Virus record (IMG/VR): IMGVR_UViG_3300025168_000036
Origin: a virus
Strand: one strand, 5' to 3'
Length of the DNA: 64,000 bases
Below are positions 13,488-35,800 of this stretch, piece after piece. Below the pieces are notes generated by a model. It saw nothing but the letters and a program-made list of their open reading frames with translations, was not told where the DNA came from and searched no databases. Each line of letters begins with the position of its first letter. The first letter of the stretch is position 1. A program made the position numbers and the translations under genes.

Positions 13488-13780
13488 TATTTTGTCTCCT
13501 TATAAATTGTTAAAATTTCATCTTCTCTACATACGATGAACTCTTCTCTATTAACTTCAAGTCTTTTAGCTGAAAATTTTGGATAGTATACTACATCGCC
13601 TACCTTACATTGCATATGACCTCTTTTTCCAGTATTTAGTAGTGGGCCGGGACCTACTGCTAATACTTCGCCTTTAAGTGATACTTCTGCATCAACTTCT
13701 GGCATAATTACTCCACCTGATGTCATTTCATCTGGTTCTAATCCTTTTAATACTACATTTCCTCCTGTTGGTGTAAACAT
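13487..13780 (-). CDS. groES: Co-chaperonin GroES
   Basis: TSGGVIMP mobile loop, GEVLAVGPG, KVGDVV, REDEIL. Confidence 0.92.
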   Translation of the reverse strand: MFTPTGGNVVLKGLEPDEMTSGGVIMPEVDAEVSLKGEVLAVGPGPLLNTGKRGHMQCKVGDVVYYPKFSAKRLEVNREEFIVCREDEILTIYKETK

Positions 13781-14499
13781 TATATTGCCTCCTTATCTTT
13801 AATTCTTAATTTATTTTCTATTTCATGTGAGCTTCTTACACATGATATTCCTAATTGGTCTTTCATTACTTCTGGTGTTGTGCAAGACTGGTTAAAGCTT
13901 GCAAAATCTGTTTTACTTGGGAACCTTCCACAACCTGCAAATAGACACCCAAATGCATTTGATAAATAATCTGCAGCTGCGTAGTCACACTTTCCTATTA
14001 AGTCACATCCTGGCTTGAAGCTTTTTGCAGCTTCAATTCCCATATCGATCATCTTCTCTCTTAATAGCCAATGTAAACCTACAATAAACTCTTCCTCGCA
14101 AAACTTAAGCCTTCTCATCATCTGTCCTCTAAGAGAATTAATATTTTGCTCAACTACGTATGTACATTCTCTTGACATTAAATTAAACAATTCAGGATTT
14201 TCGCTTTCAGATACTCTGTGCTTTTCCAGTTCAGATAGCGTTTTTATGGTTTTGTCGCGAAAGTCTGAGTTCTTCTCCATTAACTCATATACCTGAGTAT
14301 AAACCACATATGTTGGGTTTGGATTAACCTCATATTGCTTAAATTTAATTCCTACTCTAGCCCTTGAATGTTGATCATATTGGCAAATTGGTGTCCCTTT
14401 TACTCTATATGTTATCATACCAGAAGCCTGATGCCAATTCAAAATGTCTACTTCTAGACCTTTCACTCCACACTTTATTTCAATGTTATTAACTTTCAT
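13780..14499 (-). CDS. Divergent ThyX-fold protein B
   Basis: ITYRVKG..DQHSRARVG (RHR-like), NINSLRGQMMRRL, C-terminal PGC...GKC. Confidence 0.55.
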   Translation of the reverse strand: MKVNNIEIKCGVKGLEVDILNWHQASGMITYRVKGTPICQYDQHSRARVGIKFKQYEVNPNPTYVVYTQVYELMEKNSDFRDKTIKTLSELEKHRVSESENPELFNLMSRECTYVVEQNINSLRGQMMRRLKFCEEEFIVGLHWLLREKMIDMGIEAAKSFKPGCDLIGKCDYAAADYLSNAFGCLFAGCGRFPSKTDFASFNQSCTTPEVMKDQLGISCVRSSHEIENKLRIKDKEAI

Positions 14500-15307
14500 A
14501 AAATAATTCTTTATCCTTTTTGCTTAAATCTTCAAATTTATATTCTCTTATCTTATGTAATACAACATCTGTATTTTCAAATATTACACTCAGATATAAA
14601 CCTATAAATGGGAATTGTTTTTCAACAACACTTACAAGTTCTTTATAGAGTATTGCCAATGACTGCTCTTTTACATTATCACCAAACTTTCCTGATGCAT
14701 TGAATCCTCTCATTGATACTAATGAAAGTAAATTTTGGCCAAAATGATATGAGTGTTGATAGCTTTGTGGTAAGAATGTTCTACCAGACTGCCAACTTGA
14801 TTGATCTTCATTTAATACATCTGCATATATTTGCTTTAAGTCATTAAATGTTTTCTTTTCTTCTGATGATAGTTTTCTTTTGCCTACAGTAATAATGTCT
14901 ACATCAGACTTATTATTGTCTCTGCATCCTATACTCATAAAACTTGTGAATGGGGTCTGAGTGTGGTAGTCAAATAGCCATCTTGGTACACCTCTTACTC
15001 TGAATATAAATTGTACCATTTCTCTTGCTTGTGGTAGTGTATTGTGAGTCAATACAGCTTTTACAACCTCAAACTTACCTTCAGGAGTTGTTTCTGGCCA
15101 TTTTTGCTTAAACTTATTGTCACCCCAAGTAGAAGTACTTGTCACAAACATTGACTTATAAGGATTTGTCATGTGGTCTTCTAATGTGACCTCAACCTCA
15201 TCAATCATATCGTGAAATTCAGTAACAACTGGTGGCCTCTCTTCTGGGAGAGTTCCCATAACTTTTCTTAGGTTTTCTACAACCTCGTAACTTAATTTAT
15301 CTTCCAT
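14489..15307 (-). CDS. Divergent ThyX-fold protein A
   Basis: AREMVQFIFRVRGVPR, SFMSIGCRD, GRTFLPQ, NLLSL, KQFP; the RHR motif is lost. Confidence 0.65.
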   Translation of the reverse strand: MEDKLSYEVVENLRKVMGTLPEERPPVVTEFHDMIDEVEVTLEDHMTNPYKSMFVTSTSTWGDNKFKQKWPETTPEGKFEVVKAVLTHNTLPQAREMVQFIFRVRGVPRWLFDYHTQTPFTSFMSIGCRDNNKSDVDIITVGKRKLSSEEKKTFNDLKQIYADVLNEDQSSWQSGRTFLPQSYQHSYHFGQNLLSLVSMRGFNASGKFGDNVKEQSLAILYKELVSVVEKQFPFIGLYLSVIFENTDVVLHKIREYKFEDLSKKDKELFYES

Positions 15308-15343
15308 AATTTTATATAACCTTTATAATATAATAAATATCTC

Positions 15344-16300
15344 TTAAATATAAAAATGTAACGAATCAAATTTTATATTTATTTTAATATTTTCTACTTT
15401 AGTATTTTTATCAAACCAGATTTTTATCATTTTGCATATAGATATAAAGTCATGGTTAAATAGCCCTACGTTTGAGGACCTAAAGTTTACACTTACATTT
15501 AATGTATTATTTCTAAGTAGAATATGAACATATGACAGGCACTCATCATCTGTAAATACAAATCTTCTACTATGTGAGTCTTCCTTCTTTCCATAGTATC
15601 CTGATAGCTCTGATTCTATCTTTTTTGTGAATTTAGCTAATTGGAATTTATAACTGTCAACTTCAAGCTGCATATAGTCATTTATATTCTCCAACCCTGT
15701 ATATAGATCTTTTGATGCCCAACTTTCCACATCGTCATAAGACATATCTAAATCCATCTTATAATTTATAAGCTCCTTAGTACCACCAACACTAGCTCCG
15801 TATTCCTGTAATGCAGTCATTGCTGTTCCTATTTGGTGCTCTGGGCTTAATAAAAATTCATTATACATTTCTATAATGCCATTAATTCTTTTTGCAATAG
15901 ATCCTGGATCATCCTCTCCATCTATTACCCAAAAGTTTCTATGCTTTTCAAATCTAATGCATAGATCTTTATATATTCTTGCCACATGCTTTATTGACGA
16001 CCAAGACTGGAATTCATCTCCCCTATTACAATATCTCCTATGCAACTCTGCCTCACTAATGTCAAAATAGAAAACTATATTGTCATTAAGATAAGATATA
16101 AACTCATGTTCTCTTTCTTCATTATTGTCGAATCTGTTATGTAGCATGCCGTAAGCCATTATTGACATCAAGCCTCTATCGTTTAAGAGGACGTCATAGT
16201 CGTTGCCAGATTGTATAATTTCCCAAACCTTTTGGTATTGAGTTGTCTTACCTGAACAGTCAGGTCCTTCAAATATCAATTGTAGTCTTTTATTCATCAT
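15344..16300 (-). CDS. dNMP (thymidylate-kinase-like) kinase fused to a minimal ThyA/dCMP-hydroxymethylase-like domain
   Basis: EGPDCSGKTT and NDR (kinase); SRR, ECLSY, FRSSN, HDF, SLHFY (TS fold). Start is 16300 or 16297. Confidence 0.7.
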   Translation of the reverse strand: MMNKRLQLIFEGPDCSGKTTQYQKVWEIIQSGNDYDVLLNDRGLMSIMAYGMLHNRFDNNEEREHEFISYLNDNIVFYFDISEAELHRRYCNRGDEFQSWSSIKHVARIYKDLCIRFEKHRNFWVIDGEDDPGSIAKRINGIIEMYNEFLLSPEHQIGTAMTALQEYGASVGGTKELINYKMDLDMSYDDVESWASKDLYTGLENINDYMQLEVDSYKFQLAKFTKKIESELSGYYGKKEDSHSRRFVFTDDECLSYVHILLRNNTLNVSVNFRSSNVGLFNHDFISICKMIKIWFDKNTKVENIKINIKFDSLHFYI

Positions 16301-18536
16301 TAAACCTTTCATAAATTTTATTTAAGAACATTGTCTCACTATCTTTAAATCTACCAAGAGATATTAGCACCAATTCACCAGGTTCTATTTCCTCAAAACC
16401 TTTCATCTTATTCTGCCATATAAAGAAGTCTATTGAGCCATTGTCATCTTTTAGTGTTGCAATACCCATAGGCTTACCAGAAGACTTACTTCTTTTTGCA
16501 ATATATTTATCTACTATACCTATAATATAACAACCCATCTTGTCACCAAGTTTCATCCTTACTTCACTTGGTAGCATTGTATTTTGAAACTTAAAGTCTC
16601 TTTCTGTAAGTATTTGTACCATCTCTTTAATAGTGTCATTTATAAGATACTTTACATTAGTAGACATTGCACCATATTCAAGTTCTTTTAACTCTGTAAA
16701 GTTAAACTTTTTATCTTCATAGTCAGGTTGCTTTTTCTTTGGTAGCCTACCTTTATGAAATTGATTATAAGTATCCACCTCCTCATCCCATGAATCAAAT
16801 GCACCTGCAAATATTAAGTTTTCAACCTTTGACTTATTTTTAATTTCAGATCTGTCCAAGAAGTCCTGGAAGCTATTATATGGTGCGTGATTTAGTATTA
16901 GCTCCACATCACTAGGTGAAACAGTCTTAATTGCATCAAAGCCAAATAGTATACTTTTATCAACTATTGTAAATCCTTTTTGAGATGCATTTATATTTGC
17001 ACGTTCAACTTTAAAGCCTAGTTTCTTTGCAACATTAATGTGCTTCATCATATCAGTTCCTGGTTCAGAGTTGTCAAGCATAACCTTCATATATTCAATT
17101 GGGTAATTTGCCTTAAAGTATCCACCCCAATAAGATATTAATGAATAAGATACAGAATGGGCTTGATTAAAGCCATAGGCTGCAAATGCAGCACACTTTT
17201 CAAATAGATCCATTGCATCTGATTCCTTGATATGAACTGATAAGCCTTTGATAAACTTTTCCTTGTATAGACCAATATTCTTTTGCCTTTGCTCCATTGA
17301 TTCCCAGTCACGGTACTTAACTAATACCTTTCTAAACTTATTTGATTCTGAATCTGTAAACCCTGCAATAAGTGCCAGTTTCATAATTTGTTCTTGATAG
17401 GTAATAATTCCATATGTTTCTTCTAGGACTGTGTTAAGTGGTTCTGGCCACCTTTCGTACTCACCTGAATGTTTACGTTTGGCATACTCAGTTGGCATAC
17501 CTTCCATAAGTGGGCCAGGTCTTAATAGTGCAGAAACTGCTGATAGTTCAGCAACTGAGTCTGCCTTAACATCTTTTAAGATACCTTTTGCTGTGCCTGA
17601 TTCAAATTGAAATATTGTATCAGTATCTGATGTGTGGAATATTTTCTTAAATGTATATTCATCATCTAGTGGAATGTCACCTAGTTTTAGATTAAGTCCA
17701 TGCCTTTTATTAACAAGGTCCATAGTTGCACCTACTATTGATACATTTTTAAGGCCAAGTATATCAAACTTTACATATCCCATATGCTTAAGGCCGTAAG
17801 TTCCAGTACCTTCCTCCCATGCTGATGATATACCATCACCAATTTTATTTAGTGCAATATTTTCATCTAAGTTTTCAGATGATATAATAACACCAGCTGG
17901 ATGTGTTCCGTAATTCCTAAGCATACCTCTAATCTTTTCTGCATAGAATTTAACCTTGGGGTATTTTGTAAAGTATTGTTTTAGTTTGTCAAAGTCATTA
18001 GCAAGTTCATCAAATGTTTTCTTTTCAGTTGACTCACCAGCCATGATAGTCTTTGTCATACCGAATGTATCCTTTGCAGGGACACCTAATGCACCAGCAA
18101 CATCTTGTATAATTGCCCTTGTTTTTGCAAGCTGATATACACCAATTTGTTTTACCTTTTCTCTACCAAACCTTTCATAGATGTAATTAATGACCTTTTG
18201 CCTTCCATGCCTACATACATCTTGATCAATATCAACAAGATCGACATCACCATCAGTTATAATCTCTGGCTTTTTATTTGTTTCAATGGGGTTTTCCTCA
18301 TAAATATCCAACAGCCAGTACAACAGACTATTTTGTTTATTACCTGGCAATTTCTTGCCTTTATTTTCGGTTATAAACGCCTGAATCTGCTTGTACTGGT
18401 CTGGATATCGTGCCTGGTAAAAATCGATTGCATCACACTCTTGTTGTAGCCAAGCAATATGCTCATCAAGACCTCTTTCCCTAAGGACCTTTGATGCATT
18501 CGTAAATATTTTATCTCCAATTAGTATCTTACTCAT
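16290..18536 (-). CDS. dnaE: DNA polymerase III alpha (family C), catalytic/C-terminal subunit
   Basis: DIDQD, HPAGVIIS, KFDILGL, FQFES, LRPGP, YQEQIM, YGFNQAHS, C-terminal OB fold. Confidence 0.92.
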   Translation of the reverse strand: MSKILIGDKIFTNASKVLRERGLDEHIAWLQQECDAIDFYQARYPDQYKQIQAFITENKGKKLPGNKQNSLLYWLLDIYEENPIETNKKPEIITDGDVDLVDIDQDVCRHGRQKVINYIYERFGREKVKQIGVYQLAKTRAIIQDVAGALGVPAKDTFGMTKTIMAGESTEKKTFDELANDFDKLKQYFTKYPKVKFYAEKIRGMLRNYGTHPAGVIISSENLDENIALNKIGDGISSAWEEGTGTYGLKHMGYVKFDILGLKNVSIVGATMDLVNKRHGLNLKLGDIPLDDEYTFKKIFHTSDTDTIFQFESGTAKGILKDVKADSVAELSAVSALLRPGPLMEGMPTEYAKRKHSGEYERWPEPLNTVLEETYGIITYQEQIMKLALIAGFTDSESNKFRKVLVKYRDWESMEQRQKNIGLYKEKFIKGLSVHIKESDAMDLFEKCAAFAAYGFNQAHSVSYSLISYWGGYFKANYPIEYMKVMLDNSEPGTDMMKHINVAKKLGFKVERANINASQKGFTIVDKSILFGFDAIKTVSPSDVELILNHAPYNSFQDFLDRSEIKNKSKVENLIFAGAFDSWDEEVDTYNQFHKGRLPKKKQPDYEDKKFNFTELKELEYGAMSTNVKYLINDTIKEMVQILTERDFKFQNTMLPSEVRMKLGDKMGCYIIGIVDKYIAKRSKSSGKPMGIATLKDDNGSIDFFIWQNKMKGFEEIEPGELVLISLGRFKDSETMFLNKIYERFNDE

Positions 18537-18537
18537 A

Positions 18538-19821
18538 TTATATCATTTTTGGGAATGAAGCTTTATCTCTACCTAGGTCTAAGAACCTCTCAAAGATTAA
18601 ACCCCAATCTAGTGGATTGACTTCTGTTAAGCCTAGCACAAATGCAATTAGGCTTCCTGCAACTGAACCTCTACCAGGTCCAATATATATCTTTTCTTTA
18701 TTACAATATTGTATTATGTCCTCAAGTATAAGAAAGTATCCAATGTAATTCATTTTACGTAATACTGAATATTCATATCTTATCCTATCTTTTACCTCAT
18801 CTGATATATCATTGCCAAATCTGTACTTAAGTCCATGTTTTATCTTTTCTTGAAATATGACTTGTTCATCATCATATAATTTTGGAAGCTTTACATCGGC
18901 ATCAAAGTTTGTGTCTTGAACAAGGTCAAGTATTTTGTGACAGTTATTTGCCGATTCAATAAATACATCTTCAGTAAACCACTCATTGCAGTGGTGCTTT
19001 TTCCAAGATGCATGCATTTCGTCATAGTTTTTATAATAAAGTTCTCTGGCATGATAACCTTTTAAGTTTTCACAATCAGTAATACCATCCTTATTAGATC
19101 TATCTCTAATTGTTATTAGCATGTCATGAACTTCCTGATCATCATAGCGAATATAGTGAGCGTCATTGGTCACAACTGTTTCTATATCAAGTTCTTTTGC
19201 AATCTGAACAAGTTGTTTATTACAATCAATTTGTTCTTGCATCTGATGTACTTGTAGTTCTATAAAGTATTTGTCGCCAAATCTGTCCTTATATCTTTTG
19301 GCCACACTTTTGGCCTGTTCGTAGTCACCATTCATTAAATGAAACGGTATTTCACCACCTAGACATGCAGAAGTGATTACAAGACCCTCACCATATTTAC
19401 TAAGCATTTCAAAATCTGTTCTTGGTTTAGAATAGAAGCCATTCATGTGGGCATCATTATTAATTCTAATTAGATTTTTTATTCCTTTATTATTATATGC
19501 TAAGACAAGAAGGTGAAAATACTTTCTGTATTTTTGTTTGTTTTCATCTATCTGCCTATCACCCTCAGACATAAATCTGTGATTGTTAACATATAGTTCA
19601 CAACCAAACACAGGAGTAATACCCTCTTGTCTAGCATACTTCCATAACCTGGCCCAGGATGAGATCACACCGTGATCAGTAATTGCTAAGTGACTTAAAT
19701 TGTTCTCCTTGCCGAAGTCAATAAGTTCCTGCAACTTTGAAAGTGCATCTCTGGTTGAAAATTCACTATGGCAATGTATTTGTACGAAGCCATTCTTAAC
19801 ATCTTTCCTGGGTTTTATCAT
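18538..19821 (-). CDS. dnaE: DNA polymerase III alpha, N-terminal PHP subunit
   Basis: HCHSEFS..D, AITDHG, GCE, HLLVLA, TNDAHY, GPGRGSVAGSL, FERFL. Confidence 0.92.
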   Translation of the reverse strand: MIKPRKDVKNGFVQIHCHSEFSTRDALSKLQELIDFGKENNLSHLAITDHGVISSWARLWKYARQEGITPVFGCELYVNNHRFMSEGDRQIDENKQKYRKYFHLLVLAYNNKGIKNLIRINNDAHMNGFYSKPRTDFEMLSKYGEGLVITSACLGGEIPFHLMNGDYEQAKSVAKRYKDRFGDKYFIELQVHQMQEQIDCNKQLVQIAKELDIETVVTNDAHYIRYDDQEVHDMLITIRDRSNKDGITDCENLKGYHARELYYKNYDEMHASWKKHHCNEWFTEDVFIESANNCHKILDLVQDTNFDADVKLPKLYDDEQVIFQEKIKHGLKYRFGNDISDEVKDRIRYEYSVLRKMNYIGYFLILEDIIQYCNKEKIYIGPGRGSVAGSLIAFVLGLTEVNPLDWGLIFERFLDLGRDKASFPKMI

Positions 19822-19825
19822 AGTA

Positions 19826-19893
19826 CTAATATAACAATTTTTATTGAAGTAAAAAAACTTTTTACGTATTATTTTTGAAAGTTATTAACAATT
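19826..19893 (-). repeat. Dispersed promoter-associated repeat, copy B (more diverged), directly upstream of dnaE-N
   Basis: TAATATAACAA...AAAAAAA...TACGTATTATTTTTGAAAGTTATTAACAATT on + strand. Confidence 0.7.
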
Positions 19894-20242
19894 ACATGCA
19901 ATGGTTCATCCACTTTCCGTAAAACTTAAGGTATTCTTTTTCCAGTCTGCCAAACGTTAGTGTCTTATAGTGCACACTTTCTAGCTTATCATTTGGGAGG
20001 TGTGTTGAAAGATAGTTATCTATTAAATTTTGCAAACCTTTTATATCATGATACTGTATGAGATTAGTGGGAAAGCAAAACATGAACTCTTTTGTGCCGT
20101 CTTCTCTATTTAGTATATAGCTCCAAAAGTCATCTATATATAATCTTGAATCTATATTACTCTCTACTTGTGATTCCCAAAATTTAATCTCAGCCTTTGC
20201 AGCTGGATTTTCATAGAAGCAGGTTGTTAATTTTACTTTCAT
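19892..20242 (-). CDS. Hypothetical protein within the nucleotide cassette
   Basis: 116-aa ORF overlapping the dNTPase-HAD gene. Confidence 0.55.
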   Translation of the reverse strand: MKVKLTTCFYENPAAKAEIKFWESQVESNIDSRLYIDDFWSYILNREDGTKEFMFCFPTNLIQYHDIKGLQNLIDNYLSTHLPNDKLESVHYKTLTFGRLEKEYLKFYGKWMNHCM

Positions 20243-21143
20243 GTTTTATACCTTTATTTAGTTTTCTATCTAGTGTCTCTTCTGTATATAAGCCAAAGTT
20301 TGGCTTTAAGTATACTTCAAATCCACTATCATTTAATTTATTTGCATTATTTATATCATCATCTATACAAAATGCAACCTGTTCGGGGTCAAAGTTATTT
20401 ATAATATACTTTTCCTTCTCTTCATCAAACACAATTGCATCATAGCATATACCATTGTCCTTAAGCCACTTAATTGTGTCTGAATATATTCTAAAATACT
20501 TTTTATATGGCCTTGCGGTAAGAAGTACAACACTATATTTCTTGCATGCGTCTTTCATAAACTGCTTTGCACCATCTAGCACATCTAATGTTGCTTTTAC
20601 ACCACATGTTCTATATTCAGATTTTATTCTATATTGTTCTTTTTTATCAACTTCTGATTTGAATTGACTTAGACTTTCATAGCCAGACCACTTTAAGAAT
20701 CCACCTGGCCAATCTGCAAGTACACCATCTATATCTATAAAAGCAATCTTTTTATCAGATGCCTTAATCTTTTTCATTACCTTTTCTTGGTTAAATTTAG
20801 CCTCTACAACTCTTGATTTGTCCATAAACTTTTCATATAAGTCATCTACACTAAAGCCATTAAGTTGAATTATTCCAAATAGATATTTTAATACATCAAC
20901 ACATTCCTCTAATACATTATCATTTACATCTTCAGTCTTTTTTGATGTGTGCATCTTCCAATCTATTTCATCTAGTACTTCATATACTTCCTTAGATAAT
21001 GCTAGAACATATTCTTTATTCCATTTTATCTTTAATTCCTTATCATTAACGACATCATCTATTGTAAGATTGTGTTTATCTTTAAAGAACTTCTCTGTAA
21101 AGCTCTTTTGTAATTCGAAAATTTCTTTTAATTTATCTTTCAT
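20211..21143 (-). CDS. All-alpha dNTP pyrophosphatase (dimeric dUTPase/T4 gp56-like) fused to HAD 5'(3')-deoxyribonucleotidase
   Basis: EVYEVLDEIDWKMH...EECVD; then DIDGVLAD, LTARP, IDDD. Start 21143 gives an ATGA overlap with the upstream stop. Confidence 0.8.
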   Translation of the reverse strand: MKDKLKEIFELQKSFTEKFFKDKHNLTIDDVVNDKELKIKWNKEYVLALSKEVYEVLDEIDWKMHTSKKTEDVNDNVLEECVDVLKYLFGIIQLNGFSVDDLYEKFMDKSRVVEAKFNQEKVMKKIKASDKKIAFIDIDGVLADWPGGFLKWSGYESLSQFKSEVDKKEQYRIKSEYRTCGVKATLDVLDGAKQFMKDACKKYSVVLLTARPYKKYFRIYSDTIKWLKDNGICYDAIVFDEEKEKYIINNFDPEQVAFCIDDDINNANKLNDSGFEVYLKPNFGLYTEETLDRKLNKGIKHESKINNLLL

Positions 21144-22099
21144 CTTAATTCCTTTGTCCATCCTAGAACTCTATCTAGTACCTCATTTGCCTTTACCTTA
21201 TGATTCCATTGTGCGAATCTACCTAACATATATATTTTGTCTATCTTATCTAGATTAATACTATTTTGAATTTGGAATGGCAAGCCTTCAAATTTATGTA
21301 TTATAGGATAAGGTGGAGTTATTGGCTCCACAGACTCATATACCATATAATTATTAAAGTATGTCTTTCTTGACCAGCCTTCTGTGTGACCATAAATATA
21401 GTCAAACTTGGATAGCTCACCTTTATTTGTCTGGTAGAAACATTTTGGTAGTGTTGTAAGATCATATTTATCTAGCTCATCTCCATCCCATATTGAACCA
21501 AGTGGAGATTCCTTAGTAAGAAGCTTTAGATTAAGTGTGTTTATAACAACATTATAGCTTCTACACATTGAAGGTCCTGCACCATCCTTTGCATATATGT
21601 ATCCGTGTGAGTCTACCTTTGTAATTCTTTCTCTTTTAAGCTGACCTCTATCAATATCAATTATTTTTAATAGTGTTTCAAATAAGAATTTATAGCTATC
21701 CTCACCCATGTCTTCTATTTCTAGGTGCTGTATTTCATTCTTGCCTTCAGATAGGTAGCTTGACTCAGACTTACTTTTTCCTCTAGTAAGTTTTGTATAC
21801 TTATTCTTAAAACCTGGAGGTAGGACTACGTCTCTTTTTCCATCTTCCTCATACCCAACAATTGCTACAACTGTTTTTATTCTATATGAATGCAAACCTG
21901 CATCATTTAATACACTTCTAACGAATTTTTCTGAATTTTCTGTTTTTTGGATTAATCTAGGTCCTGGAATAAACGGTAAATTTAACTGGCCTAGTGGATT
22001 TTCATCATAAACAGCATATTCTGGAAAGTAGTATCCAGCTATTAAACCTGCCGGACCTCCACCTAATATACAACCTTGTTTCATTTTATTTTCTTTCAT
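21140..22099 (-). CDS. FAD-dependent Rossmann enzyme (UDP-galactopyranose mutase/HemY-like fold)
   Basis: ILGGGPAGL at the N-terminus; LGRFAQWNH near the C-terminus. Confidence 0.7.
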   Translation of the reverse strand: MKENKMKQGCILGGGPAGLIAGYYFPEYAVYDENPLGQLNLPFIPGPRLIQKTENSEKFVRSVLNDAGLHSYRIKTVVAIVGYEEDGKRDVVLPPGFKNKYTKLTRGKSKSESSYLSEGKNEIQHLEIEDMGEDSYKFLFETLLKIIDIDRGQLKRERITKVDSHGYIYAKDGAGPSMCRSYNVVINTLNLKLLTKESPLGSIWDGDELDKYDLTTLPKCFYQTNKGELSKFDYIYGHTEGWSRKTYFNNYMVYESVEPITPPYPIIHKFEGLPFQIQNSINLDKIDKIYMLGRFAQWNHKVKANEVLDRVLGWTKELR

Positions 22100-22102
22100 A
22101 CT

Positions 22103-22114
22103 TTAATATAACAA
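22103..22114 (-). promoter_or_regulatory. Putative early/middle promoter element TT(G/A)TTATATT(A/T), representative copy heading the nucleotide cassette
   Basis: Same element, always just upstream of a gene, at 1194, 10413, 15325, 19826, 22103, 30612, 31658, 32057, 35807, 55476, 55925 and 63326. Confidence 0.7.
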
Positions 22115-22134
22115 ATTTTTGTGAATAAAAAAAA

Positions 22135-23019
22135 TTATAAGCAACTTAAATATCTTTCACCTCTGTCACATAGTATTGTAATTGCGTTTGTTTTATCATT
22201 ATCTCTTAACCATTGAAATGCAGCTTTAACATTAGCACCTGCACTTATTCCTACAAATAGTCCATATCTTAGAGCTAAGTGTCTTGCAGCTGCCTTAGCA
22301 CATTCAGTTTTAACTGGTACAATATCAGAAACAAAGTTTAGATCTACTAAAAATTTGCTTCCATCACCAATTCCTTGTATGCCATGAAGTCCTGGTTCTC
22401 CTCCGCTCATTACTGCACTTTCCTCTGGCTCAACTGCTACTATATTTATTCCTGGAACTTGCTCCTTTAGATATCCTCCTGCACCCATTATAGTTCCTCC
22501 AGTTCCTGTGCCTACTACAAATGCCTCTGGCCAGTGATCTGTTAGTTCATAGTATTCATCATGTATTTCTGGTCCTGTTGTTTTGTAGTGTGCCTCTATA
22601 TTAAGTGGGTTATGAAATTGATTGCAATTAAAGTATCCAAATGTTTCTGCTAAAGTATCTCTAGTTTCTATTGCTCCATCAAAATCTCCGGCATCAACTT
22701 GTATTAAGTCTGCTCCGTAAAACTTTAGCATTTGTTTTCGCTCTTCAGACATATTAGATGGCATAACAATTTTCATCTTATAGCCCCTTTCTGCTGCTAA
22801 CATTGCAAAAGCTATTCCTGTATTGCCCGAAGTTGCCTCTATTAGTGTGCCTCCTTTTTTAATTAGCTTTCTATTTTCGGCATCATTTAATATGTATGTT
22901 GCCATTCTGTCTTTAACACTACCTCCTGGGTTCATAAACTCACATTTGCCCCATACTGTATACTTTCCAAATCTAATTGGTATAAGCGGTGTATTACCTA
23001 CATTTTTGCTTAATCTCAT
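22135..23019 (-). CDS. cysK: Cysteine synthase (PLP-dependent, CysK/CysM family)
   Basis: GNTPL, NPGGSVKDR, ATSGNTG, GTGTGGT, HGIQGIG, DRGERYLS. Start 23019 overlaps the upstream TGA. Confidence 0.9.
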   Translation of the reverse strand: MRLSKNVGNTPLIPIRFGKYTVWGKCEFMNPGGSVKDRMATYILNDAENRKLIKKGGTLIEATSGNTGIAFAMLAAERGYKMKIVMPSNMSEERKQMLKFYGADLIQVDAGDFDGAIETRDTLAETFGYFNCNQFHNPLNIEAHYKTTGPEIHDEYYELTDHWPEAFVVGTGTGGTIMGAGGYLKEQVPGINIVAVEPEESAVMSGGEPGLHGIQGIGDGSKFLVDLNFVSDIVPVKTECAKAAARHLALRYGLFVGISAGANVKAAFQWLRDNDKTNAITILCDRGERYLSCL

Positions 23020-23222
23020 TTCTTTTTCGAAACAAAATCTATTGTATCCTCTTGTGATGGCCACCTTATCTCCTTTTTGCAATCTTTACATACCCACATT
23101 ATGTTACTGCTACCTTCCAAAAATGATAGCTCTTGCATTTTATGTGTACACTCTTTTTGTATTTTATTTATTTCTTTTTGTAAACCTTTAATCTTATCAT
23201 TAAGATTTTCTACTGGTTTCAT
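23016..23222 (-). CDS. Small coiled-coil plus zinc-finger protein
   Basis: CTH...CKDC. Confidence 0.55.
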   Translation of the reverse strand: MKPVENLNDKIKGLQKEINKIQKECTHKMQELSFLEGSSNIMWVCKDCKKEIRWPSQEDTIDFVSKKK

Positions 23223-23227
23223 AGTGT

Positions 23228-24997
23228 TTATCCCTCACAGACAGCACACTCCTTCATGGCATTAGCAGCAATATCTCCTCTAAGAACACTTTCTGTTCTA
23301 AAATAATATAGAGTTTTTATACCTTGCTTCCAGGCTTCCAAGTGAACTTGATTAATCCACTTTGGTGTAGCCTCTTTTGGGAAAGCTAGATTAAGAGAGA
23401 CTGCTTGGTCAATATATTGTTGTCTAATACCACCCTGTCTTACTAGTTCTAATTGGTTAATTTCCTTAAAAGTTTTATAAACCTCTTTAACCGAAACTGG
23501 ATCATCTAACTCCGTTGAGTCACTACATAAAATTAACTTTCCATTTAAGTAGCACCACTTATCCAATTCTTTAATATCTTGCACACTTCCTCCATCTGCA
23601 AGTATTTTATCCCAAGTCTCTTTATTATTTATTCCTGCTTTTCTTAATACTTTTTCTAATTCTTTATTCTTTCTAATAAATGTACCTTTTGCACTTTGTT
23701 CTGTATATACATTTGCCGGTATTGGTTCAATTCCAGAACTAACACCACCAGCCAACTTTGAATTTGATACAGTTGGTGCAACTGCTCTTAGGTGTGTATT
23801 TCTCATTCCTGTTCCAACACACCATAGTGGTTCACCAAACTTTGTTGCAAGATCTCTTGATGCATGATCAGATTCAGTCTTTATTTGTCCAAATATTCTT
23901 CTTGTTTCAAATTGTGCAGGCAAACCTTCAAAAGGGATACCTTTTTGCTGTAGATATGTATGCCATCCTAACACACCTAGCCCTAATGCCCTACCTTTCT
24001 CTGCACTCCTCACTGAGTTTTCAAATCCTTGTCTATGCTTAGCCTTTTCAATAAACTCTTGCAAGACACCATCTAAGAACCAAGTTGCTGTATAGATTAG
24101 ATCTGTATCTTTCCATTCCTCATATTTTGATAGATTCAGTGAGCTTAGACAGCAAACAAAAGAGTGACTTTCATCTGTATGTAATACTATTTCACTACAT
24201 ATATTTGTCATATACACCTTTAGTGCATTCTTTTTATATGCCTCTGGGTTTTGTTTATTAACATTTCCTCTATACATTACATAAGGCTCACCAGTTTGTC
24301 TTCTCTTCTTAAGTAGGTTCATCCACTTTCTTCTAGATTCTGGATCTCCTGCCTCAAGGTTTCTCATAAACTTGTCACCAACAACTGCACACTGGTGCAT
24401 ATTAAGAGACTGTCTATTTACATCACCTTTTGGTTCTCTTATTTCTAGCCAATCATCAAAATCTGGATGTTCGATATTTAGATTAACACTAGCTGCACCT
24501 CTTCTTACTGCACCTTGATTTGTTGCAAGTATTGTAGAGTCATATATCTTACAAAACGGAACAACTCCATCACTGGTTCCATTACCTGATATTTTTGCTC
24601 CAGCTGGTCTTATTTGGTTTATTCCTATACCTACACCTCCACCATGTTTTGCTAGCAACATCATTTCCAGATTCTTTCTACCAATATCAACAATACTATC
24701 TGCTACATCTATTCCAAAGCAGCTAATTGGCAGTCCTCTTTCTAGGCCTGTGTTACTTAGTACTGGACTAGCTAAACATAGCCAACCTTTCCATATATAG
24801 TCAAAGAATTTTGTTGCCAACTCAGGTCTATCTAACCTTTTTGCTACCGTTGTACATACTCTCCAGTATGCATCTTTAGGCTTCTCTCCATTATACAGAT
24901 ATCCATTGGATATTGTTTGTACATATACTTGATTATTTGCCCAACTTGGGAAGTCTACATCTATTTCCCAACCTAAGTGTTCTGCGTGATTTTTCAT
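23228..24997 (-). CDS. nrdA: Ribonucleotide reductase class I alpha subunit (no N-terminal ATP cone)
   Basis: PISCF, GGGVG, TNICSEI, VCCLSS, APTVSNS, KTLYY, C-terminal CAVCEG. Confidence 0.95.
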   Translation of the reverse strand: MKNHAEHLGWEIDVDFPSWANNQVYVQTISNGYLYNGEKPKDAYWRVCTTVAKRLDRPELATKFFDYIWKGWLCLASPVLSNTGLERGLPISCFGIDVADSIVDIGRKNLEMMLLAKHGGGVGIGINQIRPAGAKISGNGTSDGVVPFCKIYDSTILATNQGAVRRGAASVNLNIEHPDFDDWLEIREPKGDVNRQSLNMHQCAVVGDKFMRNLEAGDPESRRKWMNLLKKRRQTGEPYVMYRGNVNKQNPEAYKKNALKVYMTNICSEIVLHTDESHSFVCCLSSLNLSKYEEWKDTDLIYTATWFLDGVLQEFIEKAKHRQGFENSVRSAEKGRALGLGVLGWHTYLQQKGIPFEGLPAQFETRRIFGQIKTESDHASRDLATKFGEPLWCVGTGMRNTHLRAVAPTVSNSKLAGGVSSGIEPIPANVYTEQSAKGTFIRKNKELEKVLRKAGINNKETWDKILADGGSVQDIKELDKWCYLNGKLILCSDSTELDDPVSVKEVYKTFKEINQLELVRQGGIRQQYIDQAVSLNLAFPKEATPKWINQVHLEAWKQGIKTLYYFRTESVLRGDIAANAMKECAVCEG

Positions 24998-34576: not shown

Positions 34577-34766
34577 AATCAACTTGGCCAAAAGCCCATA
34601 TATATGCATCCTGAGCAGTTCTAAAGCCACCTTCAGTCAGTTCAGGCATCCATTCACTATTCTTTCTCTTATATATTGCAACTACCCACTCATCATTTTT
34701 TGTGTCAATTGAAGGTGTTACTTCTATCCAAAGGTTCTTGTTTAATATGTTAAATAACTTTTCCAT
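34563..34766 (-). CDS. Hypothetical protein
   Basis: 67-aa ORF immediately downstream of a GATATTTATA motif. Confidence 0.5.
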   Translation of the reverse strand: MEKLFNILNKNLWIEVTPSIDTKNDEWVVAIYKRKNSEWMPELTEGGFRTAQDAYIWAFGQVDYDKD

Positions 34767-35800
34767 TAAATATAAATATCAGTTAAGCTTCCGTAATTAC
34801 TACCTACTAGTGTTTTTACTGGTAACTCCATTGCCTTTTCTATTTCTTTTAGTTTACAAATCTCATCTGGATGCATATCAAATACTAATGCATCATAGAT
34901 ATAAAGAATTATTTTAGACTTATTAATAATCTTAGAAACATTACTAATTATTTCTGTATTAAATTCAGTCTCATATGCCTGAATTACATAGTTAAAAAGT
35001 TTTTGTGGAGTTGTTTTTCCTAGATTTGCCCTATAAAACCTTTTACCTTTTGGTGTCTTAATATAACCTTTGTTAATATAAATATCCCATAGCTTAGAAA
35101 TATATTCGTCTGTCTTAGAAAAGAATTTTATGTGTCTGTATTCATCTGGTAGTCCACCATATAGAATTCTAAATGTTATCTTTTTAGATTCAGAGTATTG
35201 ATCATCAGTTAAATTGTCAGAACTAAAGTATTGTTTTCCTAGATATTTATGAAAACTTTCATCTGGTGTCTTATAATCTATTATTTTTGCAATTAACCTT
35301 AGATGGAATGCATCGTAGTCCATTTCAACTATCTTTCCATTATCAAATCTAGAGATGTATTTGTCTCTTGACCCATCTTCCTTATTTAATGCTGCATAGT
35401 TAATTCCGTTATTACTGTTTGAAGGCCTTCCTGTTGTTGTGAATAAATTAAATCTTGACTTTTCATATTCACCTGCAACAGTATATAATTTATTTGTCTC
35501 TATACCTCTAAACGTTGGTATTATTTTATTCTTGTAAAAATTAAAGATATCGGTAGCTGCTCCATCAATATTATATAACTCGTTATACTTTTCATTCAAC
35601 AGTGACAATCTCTCCATGTGTTTTCCACGTGGAATTATACTGTCTATGTCATTTCTATTTGGATACAGTCTTTCATAGAATCTGTGAGCTGATGTTGTTA
35701 TCTTGTCTACATCTATGCTGCTATTATTTTTAAGGTAGTATAATAGTGAAATTTCATCTTTCAGTCTATTACACTCTTCTATTACATCTTTTACTTTCAT
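34766..35800 (-). CDS. Minimal family A DNA polymerase-like protein
   Basis: TTTGRPS, motif A MDYDAFHLR, motif B KKITFRILYG, NYVIQ, motif C YIYDALVFD. Confidence 0.8.
   Translation of the reverse strand: MKVKDVIEECNRLKDEISLLYYLKNNSSIDVDKITTSAHRFYERLYPNRNDIDSIIPRGKHMERLSLLNEKYNELYNIDGAATDIFNFYKNKIIPTFRGIETNKLYTVAGEYEKSRFNLFTTTGRPSNSNNGINYAALNKEDGSRDKYISRFDNGKIVEMDYDAFHLRLIAKIIDYKTPDESFHKYLGKQYFSSDNLTDDQYSESKKITFRILYGGLPDEYRHIKFFSKTDEYISKLWDIYINKGYIKTPKGKRFYRANLGKTTPQKLFNYVIQAYETEFNTEIISNVSKIINKSKIILYIYDALVFDMHPDEICKLKEIEKAMELPVKTLVGSNYGSLTDIYI

What the first reader, a model, noticed from the sequence alone, without database searches (positions are those of the whole stretch)
18180..18900. 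DnaE split without an intein, with an apparent degenerate duplicate of the pre-catalytic segment
DnaE-N ends just after GRGSVAGSLIAFVLGLTEVNPLD..FERFL..R, exactly before the catalytic DxD. The junction reads TAA T ATG and neither end shows intein motifs. DnaE-C does not begin at DIDxD: about 95 extra residues come first, including NSLLYWLLDIYEENPIE, which parallels GSLIAFVLGLTEVNPLD, and WLQQECDAI, which parallels RIRYEYSVL. Each subunit thus seems to carry a copy of the same sub-domain, and only one copy has the GRGS nucleotide-binding loop. Inference: a domain-swapped heterodimer or a remodelled dNTP pocket, relevant if the enzyme selects a modified dNTP.
Basis: partly seen in the sequence, partly recalled or inferred. 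Interest (0 to 1): 0.7.

Follow-up and report, generated by a model that had tools for sequence, protein, structure and literature searches.

The report
Two-gene phage DnaE with duplicated palm piece
This 145-kb marine phage makes its bacterial-type replicative DNA polymerase from two separate genes cut through the catalytic centre, and the second protein starts with a conserved, disabled copy of the piece that ends the first; it is a real natural split enzyme, but the scan has met it before and it is a variant of the known "genes in pieces" theme.

Summary
On the minus strand, dnaE-N (18538-19821, 427 aa) ends about 10 residues after FERFL..R. dnaE-C (16290-18536, 748 aa) starts one base after the stop and carries DIDQD only at residues 102-106.

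- **The split is real.** Three 91-96% identical contigs and independent contigs from three studies show it. The spacer is 1 or 2 nt, so the relative frame varies.
- **No splicing element.** There is no intein or group I intron signal.
- **The extension is a duplicate.** The first ~100 residues of DnaE-C are under purifying selection (dN/dS 0.06-0.08). As a family they are homologous to the canonical pre-catalytic palm segment (hhalign E 8e-12; shuffled and reversed controls at least 0.05). They lack GRGS.
- **Likely mechanism.** A non-covalent two-chain polymerase: N supplies the GS loop and C the three aspartates. A complex model supports this (ipSAE 0.76, best control 0.00). It puts N's true copy in the active site and the degenerate copy outside, against N's tail.
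- **Distribution.** Relatives with the same cut include 477-548-kb phage contigs. Two carry endonuclease genes at the junction. Cultured Cellulophaga phage phiST has the cut without the duplicate.

A link to modified dNTPs is not supported. This scan found the same arrangement earlier on other DNA. Verdict: new variant of a known kind.

The parts
18538..19821 (-). dnaE-N, 427 aa: PHP domain plus the first part of the palm (Pfam PF07733 positions 3-100), stop TAA at 18538-18540
18562..18855 (-). Authentic pre-catalytic palm segment of DnaE-N (aa 323-420: RIRYEYSVL helix, YFLILEDII helix, GPGRGS strand and loop, AGSLIAFVLGLT helix, FERFL)
   Evidence: Pfam E 3.5e-32; Taq Pol III alignment 382-458
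18664..18681 (-). GS (nucleotide-binding) loop G381-S386. G381, R384, G385 and S386 are invariant in 35 aligned sequences
18541..18582 (-). C-terminal tail of DnaE-N (aa 414-427, LDLGRDKASFPKMI). By eye ASFPKMI lines up with the canonical VSMPDID lead-in to the DxD strand without the aspartates. In the complex model it touches the DnaE-C extension
   Evidence: the lead-in parallel is my inference
18537..18537 (-). One-base spacer between stop and start (TAA-T-ATG). It is 2 nt in L001, L003 and one independent contig, and 14 nt in L030
16290..18536 (-). dnaE-C, 748 aa: extension, rest of palm, thumb, fingers, HhH, OB fold
18243..18536 (-). N-terminal extension of DnaE-C (aa 1-98): degenerate paralogue of the pre-catalytic segment, without GRGS and FERFL. 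dN/dS 0.06-0.08
18219..18233 (-). Catalytic DIDQD strand (D102, D104, D106 invariant)
17763..17765 (-). Third catalytic aspartate candidate D258 (KFDILGL; K256 and D258 invariant)
   Evidence: equivalence to E. coli D555 is from my knowledge of the family

Best explanation
The phage's DnaE (C-family) replicase is made as two polypeptides that assemble without covalent joining. DnaE-N brings the PHP domain and the first half of the Pol-beta-like palm, including the GS nucleotide-binding loop. DnaE-C brings the DxD strand, the third aspartate, the thumb, the fingers, HhH and OB. The active site is therefore composite.

The stop and start are one base apart. This fits translational coupling and roughly equal amounts of the two chains (inferred).

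The ~100-residue extension at the start of DnaE-C is a relic of a partial duplication of the segment next to the cut. It has lost its catalytic motifs but is kept under purifying selection. Its most likely role is as a docking element that, together with N's short tail, clasps the two chains (inferred from a model).

The fission most likely arose, and is kept in circulation, at a hot spot for homing-type selfish elements in the dnaE active-site coding region. The window carries an endonuclease-free allele.
For: Shown:
- Two intact ORFs with a variable spacer in independent assemblies.
- No second DnaE in the complete 145,441-bp genome.
- Both halves are under strong purifying selection: N 0.05-0.08, extension 0.06-0.08, rest of C 0.02-0.06.
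- The motifs are complementary and each is invariant.
- The extension is homologous to the canonical segment.
- No Hint or intein family in Pfam at E up to 0.1. No intron family in Rfam at E up to 10.

Complex model:
- ipSAE 0.76 against a best control of 0.00. That mark was reached by 58 of 80 solved complexes and 2 of 110 mismatched pairs.
- The runs share at least 90% of contacts, and partner pLDDT is at least 84.
- N 365-387 contacts C 103-123, 218-221 and 251-259.
- C extension residues 32-54 and 89-101 contact N 356 and N 413-427.

Distribution:
- The same cut point, with a duplicate, occurs in L030, L004 and the 477- and 548-kb contigs.
- A LAGLIDADG gene lies between the halves in L004 (Pfam E 9e-8; phrog_4645 E 4e-49).
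- An HNH-like endonuclease gene lies directly after N in L031 (phrog_681 E 7.5e-25).
- Split-intein alleles at the neighbouring GRG|S site occur among close relatives.
- The catalytic-core tree scatters extension-type alleles among unsplit and split-intein alleles. An AU test of one clade gives p 2.8e-8.
Against: - No biochemical evidence exists for assembly or activity.
- The complex model may pass from memory of intact DnaE structures, because most N-C contacts are intramolecular contacts of the solved enzymes. Only the extension-tail contacts have no solved precedent, and they are the least tested.
- When DnaE-C 1-330 is folded alone, the extension forms a helical bundle. It superposes on solved DnaE only in sequence order (rmsd 15-16 A), so its three-dimensional role is open.
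- The window itself has no endonuclease gene, so the homing link is by relatives only.
- A single origin of the extension is not shown once the defining columns are removed.
Confidence: 0.78

Rival explanations
1. One polypeptide is still made, by programmed frameshifting, stop read-through, ribosome hopping, protein trans-splicing or RNA splicing across the junction.
For: The halves abut (TAA-T-ATG). Relatives do use split inteins 40 residues upstream, at GRG|S. Phage dnaE genes with tiny recoding gaps were noted elsewhere in this scan (I did not check this).
Against: - The spacer is 1 nt in the window and L002, 2 nt in L001, L003 and an independent contig, and 14 nt in L030. The relative frame is therefore not conserved.
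- The halves lie 3-4.4 kb apart in the large phage contigs, and an endonuclease gene separates them in L004.
- N's tail is 10-15 residues with no Cys or Ser nucleophile block, and the extension does not end in HN. Pfam finds no Hint family.
- Rfam finds no intron.
- A fused product would hold two copies of the same palm segment.
Confidence: 0.04
2. DnaE-C is a self-sufficient polymerase whose own extension fills the palm. DnaE-N is a separate PHP exonuclease or pyrophosphatase carrying a vestigial palm stub.
For: The extension keeps the order of secondary-structure elements of the canonical segment and is conserved. Structural alignments of the DnaE-C model to E. coli Pol III run collinearly from model residue 2 to chain residue 284.
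Against: - The extension has lost the GS loop in all 14 family members seen. From my knowledge of the Pol-beta-like nucleotidyltransferase fold, that loop binds the incoming nucleotide's phosphates.
- N's copy keeps G381, R384, G385 and S386 invariant, which is not how a vestige behaves.
- The complex model puts N's copy at the DxD strand.
Confidence: 0.1
3. The extension is not a duplicate but an unrelated helical docking domain that only looks similar.
For: Pairwise BLASTP E 1.3. No Pfam hit for residues 1-100 alone. The fold of the extension alone has no convincing structural match beyond collinearity.
Against: - Profile-profile E 7.7e-12 over 80 collinear columns, with clean reversed and shuffled controls. 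The window sequence alone gives E 6.9e-5.
- More than 100 independent phmmer alignments to unsplit DnaE start inside the extension.
- Less diverged family members read like the canonical helix, for example TNKSGSIILYLLGISAVDPV.
Confidence: 0.05
4. It is an assembly artefact or a decaying pseudogene.
For: RefSeq leaves the equivalent region of Cellulophaga phage phiST without a CDS, as if it had been judged broken.
Against: Independent contigs from several studies agree. dN/dS is 0.02-0.08 along both ORFs. It is the only DnaE in a complete genome.
Confidence: 0.01

Closest known systems
Split 'minimal' DNA polymerase III alpha of group 2.2 jumbo phages (Iyer, Anantharaman, Krishnan, Burroughs, Aravind 2021, PMC7824862)
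   Same: A C-family polymerase catalytic module encoded as two proteins: an N-terminal NTP-binding unit and a C-terminal Mg2+- and template-binding unit. The authors predicted that the two reconstitute one enzyme.
   Different: That version is reduced to the bare catalytic module. It lacks PHP and the other DnaE domains, accompanies a family B polymerase, and has its halves at distant loci. No duplicated segment is described in the passages I read. The window has a full-length DnaE architecture, no PolB, adjacent genes and a conserved degenerate duplicate.
'Fractured genes': split inteins with a free-standing homing endonuclease gene between the halves, including three dnaE loci (Dassa et al. 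2009, PMC2677866)
   Same: Phage-like dnaE is broken at conserved active-site positions with an endonuclease gene in the gap. Relatives of the window show exactly such split-intein halves at GRG|S and endonuclease genes at the junction.
   Different: Those halves are rejoined by protein trans-splicing. Here there is no intein, so the chains must stay separate, and an overlap (duplicate) replaces the intein as the apparent association aid.
Aeromonas phage Aeh1 nrdA split by the free-standing endonuclease gene mobE (cited in the introduction of PMC2677866; details from my own knowledge)
   Same: An essential nucleotide-metabolism or replication gene is cut into two translated pieces by endonuclease invasion and works as a non-covalent complex.
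   Different: It is a different enzyme. As far as I recall no duplicated segment is involved. The window allele has no endonuclease gene left.
Two-ORF DnaE of cultured Cellulophaga phage phiST (NC_020842, region 41.5-45.3 kb, no CDS annotated)
   Same: The cut is at the same point after FERFLNSGR, with a 1-nt spacer and no intein family hit. The halves are 470 and 673 aa.
   Different: The C half starts only about 20 residues before DIDTDF and has no duplicate. Instead the N half carries a tail of about 55 residues.
Single-chain DnaE (E. coli 2HNH/5FKU, Taq 2HPI/4IQJ)
   Same: All domains and catalytic residues are the same. Best PDB matches are E 1e-70 for C and 3e-64 for N.
   Different: It is one chain, with one copy of the pre-catalytic segment.

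Membership tests
DnaE / DNA polymerase III alpha (C-family polymerase) | PHP domain at the N-terminus | tested here: met
   PF02811 E 5.5e-40 on DnaE-N residues 15-192
DnaE / DNA polymerase III alpha (C-family polymerase) | Pol-beta-like palm with a GS loop, a DxD strand and a third aspartate | tested here: met
   The features are divided between the chains. GPGRGS is in N. D102, D104 and D258 are in C. All are invariant in alignments A3 and A4. PF07733 covers positions 3-100 on N and 10-260 on C.
DnaE / DNA polymerase III alpha (C-family polymerase) | Fingers, HhH and OB domains | tested here: met
   PF17657 E 3.5e-38 and PF14579 E 1.3e-16. PF01336 is weak (E 7e-4, below its cut-off).
DnaE / DNA polymerase III alpha (C-family polymerase) | Single polypeptide | tested here: not met
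   Two ORFs in all close relatives and in independent contigs
Split-intein (trans-splicing) gene | An N-intein of about 90-105 aa with a Cys/Ser1 block after the N-extein, and a C-intein ending in HN followed by Cys, Ser or Thr | tested here: not met
   N has only about 10-15 residues after FERFL..R. The extension ends ...DGDVDLV before DIDQD. No Hint family appears in Pfam at E up to 0.1. Intein lengths are from PMC2677866.
Group I intron (with or without an endonuclease ORF) | Conserved ribozyme core; intervening sequence not under protein-level selection | tested here: not met
   No intron family in Rfam at E up to 10 in the window or L004. The extension has dN/dS 0.06-0.08. A very divergent ribozyme cannot be strictly excluded.
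Endonuclease-split 'genes in pieces' (Aeh1 nrdA-mobE type) | A free-standing homing endonuclease gene between the two halves | tested here: not met
   The window has a 1-nt spacer. The feature is met in relatives: L004 (LAGLIDADG) and L031 (HNH-like ORF next to N).
Endonuclease-split 'genes in pieces' (Aeh1 nrdA-mobE type) | The halves work as a non-covalent complex | not testable with these tools
   Only a model is available: ipSAE 0.76 against a best control of 0.00.
Minimal split Pol III alpha of group 2.2 jumbo phages (Iyer et al. 2021) | Reduced to the catalytic module, no PHP, co-occurs with a family B polymerase, halves at distant loci | tested here: not met
   PHP, fingers and HhH are present. 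There is no PolB in the genome. The genes are adjacent.
Minimal split Pol III alpha of group 2.2 jumbo phages (Iyer et al. 2021) | Cut between the NTP-binding and Mg2+-binding subdomains | tested here: inconclusive
   The boundary is the same by the paper's description. I did not align their sequences with the window.

The most novel reading that the evidence does not exclude
The cut is not a one-off accident. It is the footprint of a mobile junction cassette made of N's 3' end, stop, an optional endonuclease gene, start and the degenerate duplicate. Homing endonucleases would spread this cassette among phage dnaE genes. On this reading a partial duplication of the flanking active-site segment, rather than an intron or intein, is what lets a selfish endonuclease live inside an essential gene. 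This would explain three observations:
- Extension-type, unsplit and split-intein alleles alternate among closely related catalytic cores.
- Two unrelated endonuclease families sit at the same junction.
- The duplicate is retained under selection as the association module.
Probability: 0.3. Interest if true: 0.75.

Novelty: new variant of a known kind. Interest (0 to 1): 0.5.

Why it matters
- **Enzymology.** A replicative C-family polymerase that works as two chains cut between the nucleotide-binding loop and the metal-binding strand would be a natural fragment-complementation experiment on an enzyme long studied as a single chain.
- **Tools.** The conserved overlap suggests how nature stabilises such a split without an intein. 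That could inform engineered split polymerases.
- **Evolution.** The allele pattern offers a tractable system for asking how homing endonucleases break essential genes, and how the breaks persist after the endonuclease is lost.
- **Annotation.** Such genes are easily missed or flagged as broken. The phiST region has no CDS in RefSeq.

Tried and rejected
- **Direct similarity.** BLASTP of the two window segments (E 1.3), and Pfam and PDB sequence searches with DnaE-C 1-100 alone, found no DnaE similarity. Only profile methods do.
- **tblastn.** DnaE-C 1-130 against 50,697 phage records gave no match at E up to 0.01.
- **Fold search.** The DnaE-C 1-330 model (mean pLDDT 71) gave good superpositions only for residues 97-263. 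Alignments that include the extension have rmsd 15-16 A, so they show collinearity only.
- **Single origin of the extension.** The tree of the ~100-residue segments puts all 14 extensions on one branch (99/100). After I dropped the GS-loop and post-DP columns that define the trait, only 17% of bootstrap trees kept one change. One origin is neither shown nor excluded.
- **Large AU test.** The AU test on the 85-row set did not finish in two attempts. It was rerun on 42 rows.
- **Recombination at the junction.** Sliding-window divergence between the window and L001 shows a mosaic break inside dnaE-N (about nt 450-750), not at the junction. It does not bear on homing.
- **RNA evidence.** One metatranscriptome contig covers only 18100-18191. 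This says nothing about transcription of the junction.
- **Literature.** Searches for a described full-length split DnaE with a duplicate found none. Subscription journals are not covered.
- **Modified-dNTP link.** I found no evidence for it. It was not tested directly.
Full report
**What is there**

The two genes lie on the minus strand. dnaE-N (18538-19821, 427 aa) has a PHP domain and Pfam PF07733 positions 3-100. It ends ...GPGRGS...FERFLDLGRDKASFPKMI-stop. One base after the TAA, dnaE-C (16290-18536, 748 aa) begins (TAA-T-ATG). The catalytic DIDQD sits at residues 102-106. It is followed by the rest of the palm, the fingers, HhH and a weak OB match. The window is part of a complete 145,441-bp virus record with direct terminal repeats. 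It holds no second DnaE and no family B polymerase. The only other polymerase-like gene is a 344-aa PolA-like ORF.

**The split is real**

- Three IMG/VR contigs with 91-96% identical DnaE-C proteins carry the same 427 + 748 aa pair.
- The spacer is 1 nt in the window and L002 but 2 nt in L001 and L003, so the relative frame of the ORFs is not conserved.
- Logan contigs from other studies bridge the junction. One is identical over 18437-18638, and one carries the 2-nt variant.
- dN/dS against L001 and L002 is 0.05-0.08 for N, 0.06-0.08 for the first 98 codons of C, and 0.02-0.06 for the rest of C.
- Rfam finds no intron at E up to 10, either here or in the relative L004.
- Pfam finds no Hint or intein family. 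N has only about 10 residues beyond FERFL..R.

Frameshifting, splicing, assembly error and pseudogene decay are therefore rejected.

**The duplicate is real, but only profiles see it**

BLASTP of the two segments and Pfam on residues 1-100 alone find nothing. A phmmer search of 1.84 billion representatives shows a different picture:

- Local alignments to more than 100 unsplit DnaE proteins start at DnaE-C residue 65, the copy of the GS helix. Some start as early as residues 9-30.
- The same search recovered a family of C-halves with a 73-106-residue extension before DIDxDF and no GRGS. Twelve were found at first, and two more have large inserts.
- Less diverged members read like the canonical helix, for example TNKSGSIILYLLGISAVDPV.
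- hhalign of this family against 103 canonical pre-DxD segments gives probability 97.5% and E 7.7e-12 over 80 collinear columns. One reversed and eight shuffled controls give E 0.05-0.79.
- The window sequence alone gives E 6.9e-5.

**How widespread it is**

N-halves that end about 10-15 residues after FERFL..R, paired with extension-type C-halves, occur in these places:

- L030, whose DnaE-C is 57% identical to the window's. The genes are adjacent with a 14-nt gap.
- L004, 33% identical.
- Contigs of 548 and 477 kb, where the halves lie 3-4.4 kb apart.

In L004 a LAGLIDADG endonuclease gene fills the gap (Pfam E 9e-8; phrog_4645 E 4e-49). In the 477-kb contig an HNH-like endonuclease ORF follows N directly (phrog_681 E 7.5e-25).

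Among the closest catalytic cores are also split-intein C-halves that read ...VHN|SAAGSL. These are cut at the GS motif 40 residues upstream. This is the 'fractured gene' arrangement of Dassa et al. 2009.

Its unannotated 41.5-45.3 kb region holds two ORFs (470 + 673 aa, 1-nt spacer) cut at the same point. There is no duplicate in C, and N carries a tail of about 55 residues instead.

**History**

In a tree of the 480 residues after DxD, extension-type alleles are scattered among unsplit and split-intein alleles. Some are close sisters: P0027 with the unsplit P0023, and P0022 with the split-intein P0054. Holding the 14 extension-type rows together costs 978 log-likelihood units (AU p 2.8e-8).

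A tree of the ~100-residue segments puts all 14 extensions on one branch against 26 canonical copies (99/100). That support collapses to 17% of bootstraps when the GS-loop and post-DP columns are left out. Either one old cassette has moved between dnaE lineages, or the same fission has recurred. In both cases the junction is a recombination and homing hot spot.

**How it most likely works**

The motifs are complementary and each is invariant. G381, R384, G385 and S386 are in N. D102, D104, D106, K256 and D258 are in C. The enzyme therefore needs both chains.

A complex model of N 285-427 with C 1-330 passes its controls:

- ipSAE is 0.76 against a best control of 0.00.
- That mark was reached by 58 of 80 solved complexes and 2 of 110 mismatched pairs.
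- The runs share at least 90% of contacts, and partner pLDDT is at least 84.

This pass may be from memory, because intact DnaE structures are solved. In the model:

- N's helix and GS strand (365-387) pack on C's DxD strand, the following helix and the third-aspartate strand. That is the canonical place.
- The extension (32-54, 89-101) lies outside and touches N 356 and N's tail (413-427).

I read the extension plus the tail as a clasp. This step is inferred, not shown. Folded alone, DnaE-C 1-330 gives a helical extension (pLDDT 75-89) that matches solved DnaE only in element order.

**Comparison with what is known, and novelty**

- **Closest described system.** This is the split 'minimal' Pol III alpha of group 2.2 jumbo phages (Iyer et al. 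2021). By their description it has the same subdomain boundary. It is reduced to the catalytic module, accompanies a PolB, and has no duplicate described in the passages I read.
- **Literature.** I found no paper on a full-length two-gene DnaE with a duplicated palm segment.
- **Earlier notes of this scan.** The scan reported the same arrangement on at least four other genomes. This is therefore a recurring natural design rather than a peculiarity of this phage.

Verdict: real, conserved and mechanistically interesting. It is a new variant of the 'genes in pieces' theme.

Noticed in passing
window 34766-35800 (-): A 344-aa ORF with a family A DNA polymerase match (PF00476, 40.5 bits in two stretches, profile positions 113-357 of 381) and no exonuclease domain. 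DnaE is therefore not the only polymerase-like gene of this phage.
   Followed up: partly
window 13780-24997 (-): The dnaE pair sits in a nucleotide-metabolism block: a weak ThyX-like ORF, a thymidylate-kinase-like ORF, a dUTPase_2/MazG plus NT5C fusion, a PLP-dependent (PALP) enzyme and a class I ribonucleotide reductase large subunit. Earlier notes of the scan read this block as a possible base-replacement cassette. I did not test that.
   Followed up: no
P0017, P0043, P0054, P0111 (hits): These DnaE C-halves begin with a C-intein of about 35 residues ending VHN, followed by SAAGSL. They are split inteins inserted at the GS motif (GRG|S), and they lie among the nearest catalytic-core relatives of the extension-type alleles.
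   Followed up: partly
P0019, P0029, P0030, P0085 (hits): Another set of C-halves starts M..LYNF.F..CSHN followed by SDFEP, right at the DxD strand. The CSHN|S looks like the end of a very short C-intein. The DxD strand itself would then be on the other half.
   Followed up: no
L036 / NC_020842 41,524-45,347: RefSeq has no CDS in this 3.8-kb region of cultured Cellulophaga phage phiST, although it holds two intact DnaE ORFs (470 and 673 aa). The N half's 55-residue tail (KLTLEDGSIVELPEGTVV...) looks beta-rich and vaguely like the start of a Hint domain without the Cys.
   Followed up: partly
P0018 (1287 aa), P0052 (1197 aa): These extension-type C-halves are 400-500 residues longer than the others, and their match to the window protein is broken into 2-3 stretches. 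They probably carry inteins or other inserts further downstream.
   Followed up: no
window 19372-19821 versus L001 2715-3164: The first 450 nt of dnaE-N differ from L001 at only 2-6 sites per 150 nt, against 11-33 further on. This is a recombination mosaic inside the gene.
   Followed up: partly
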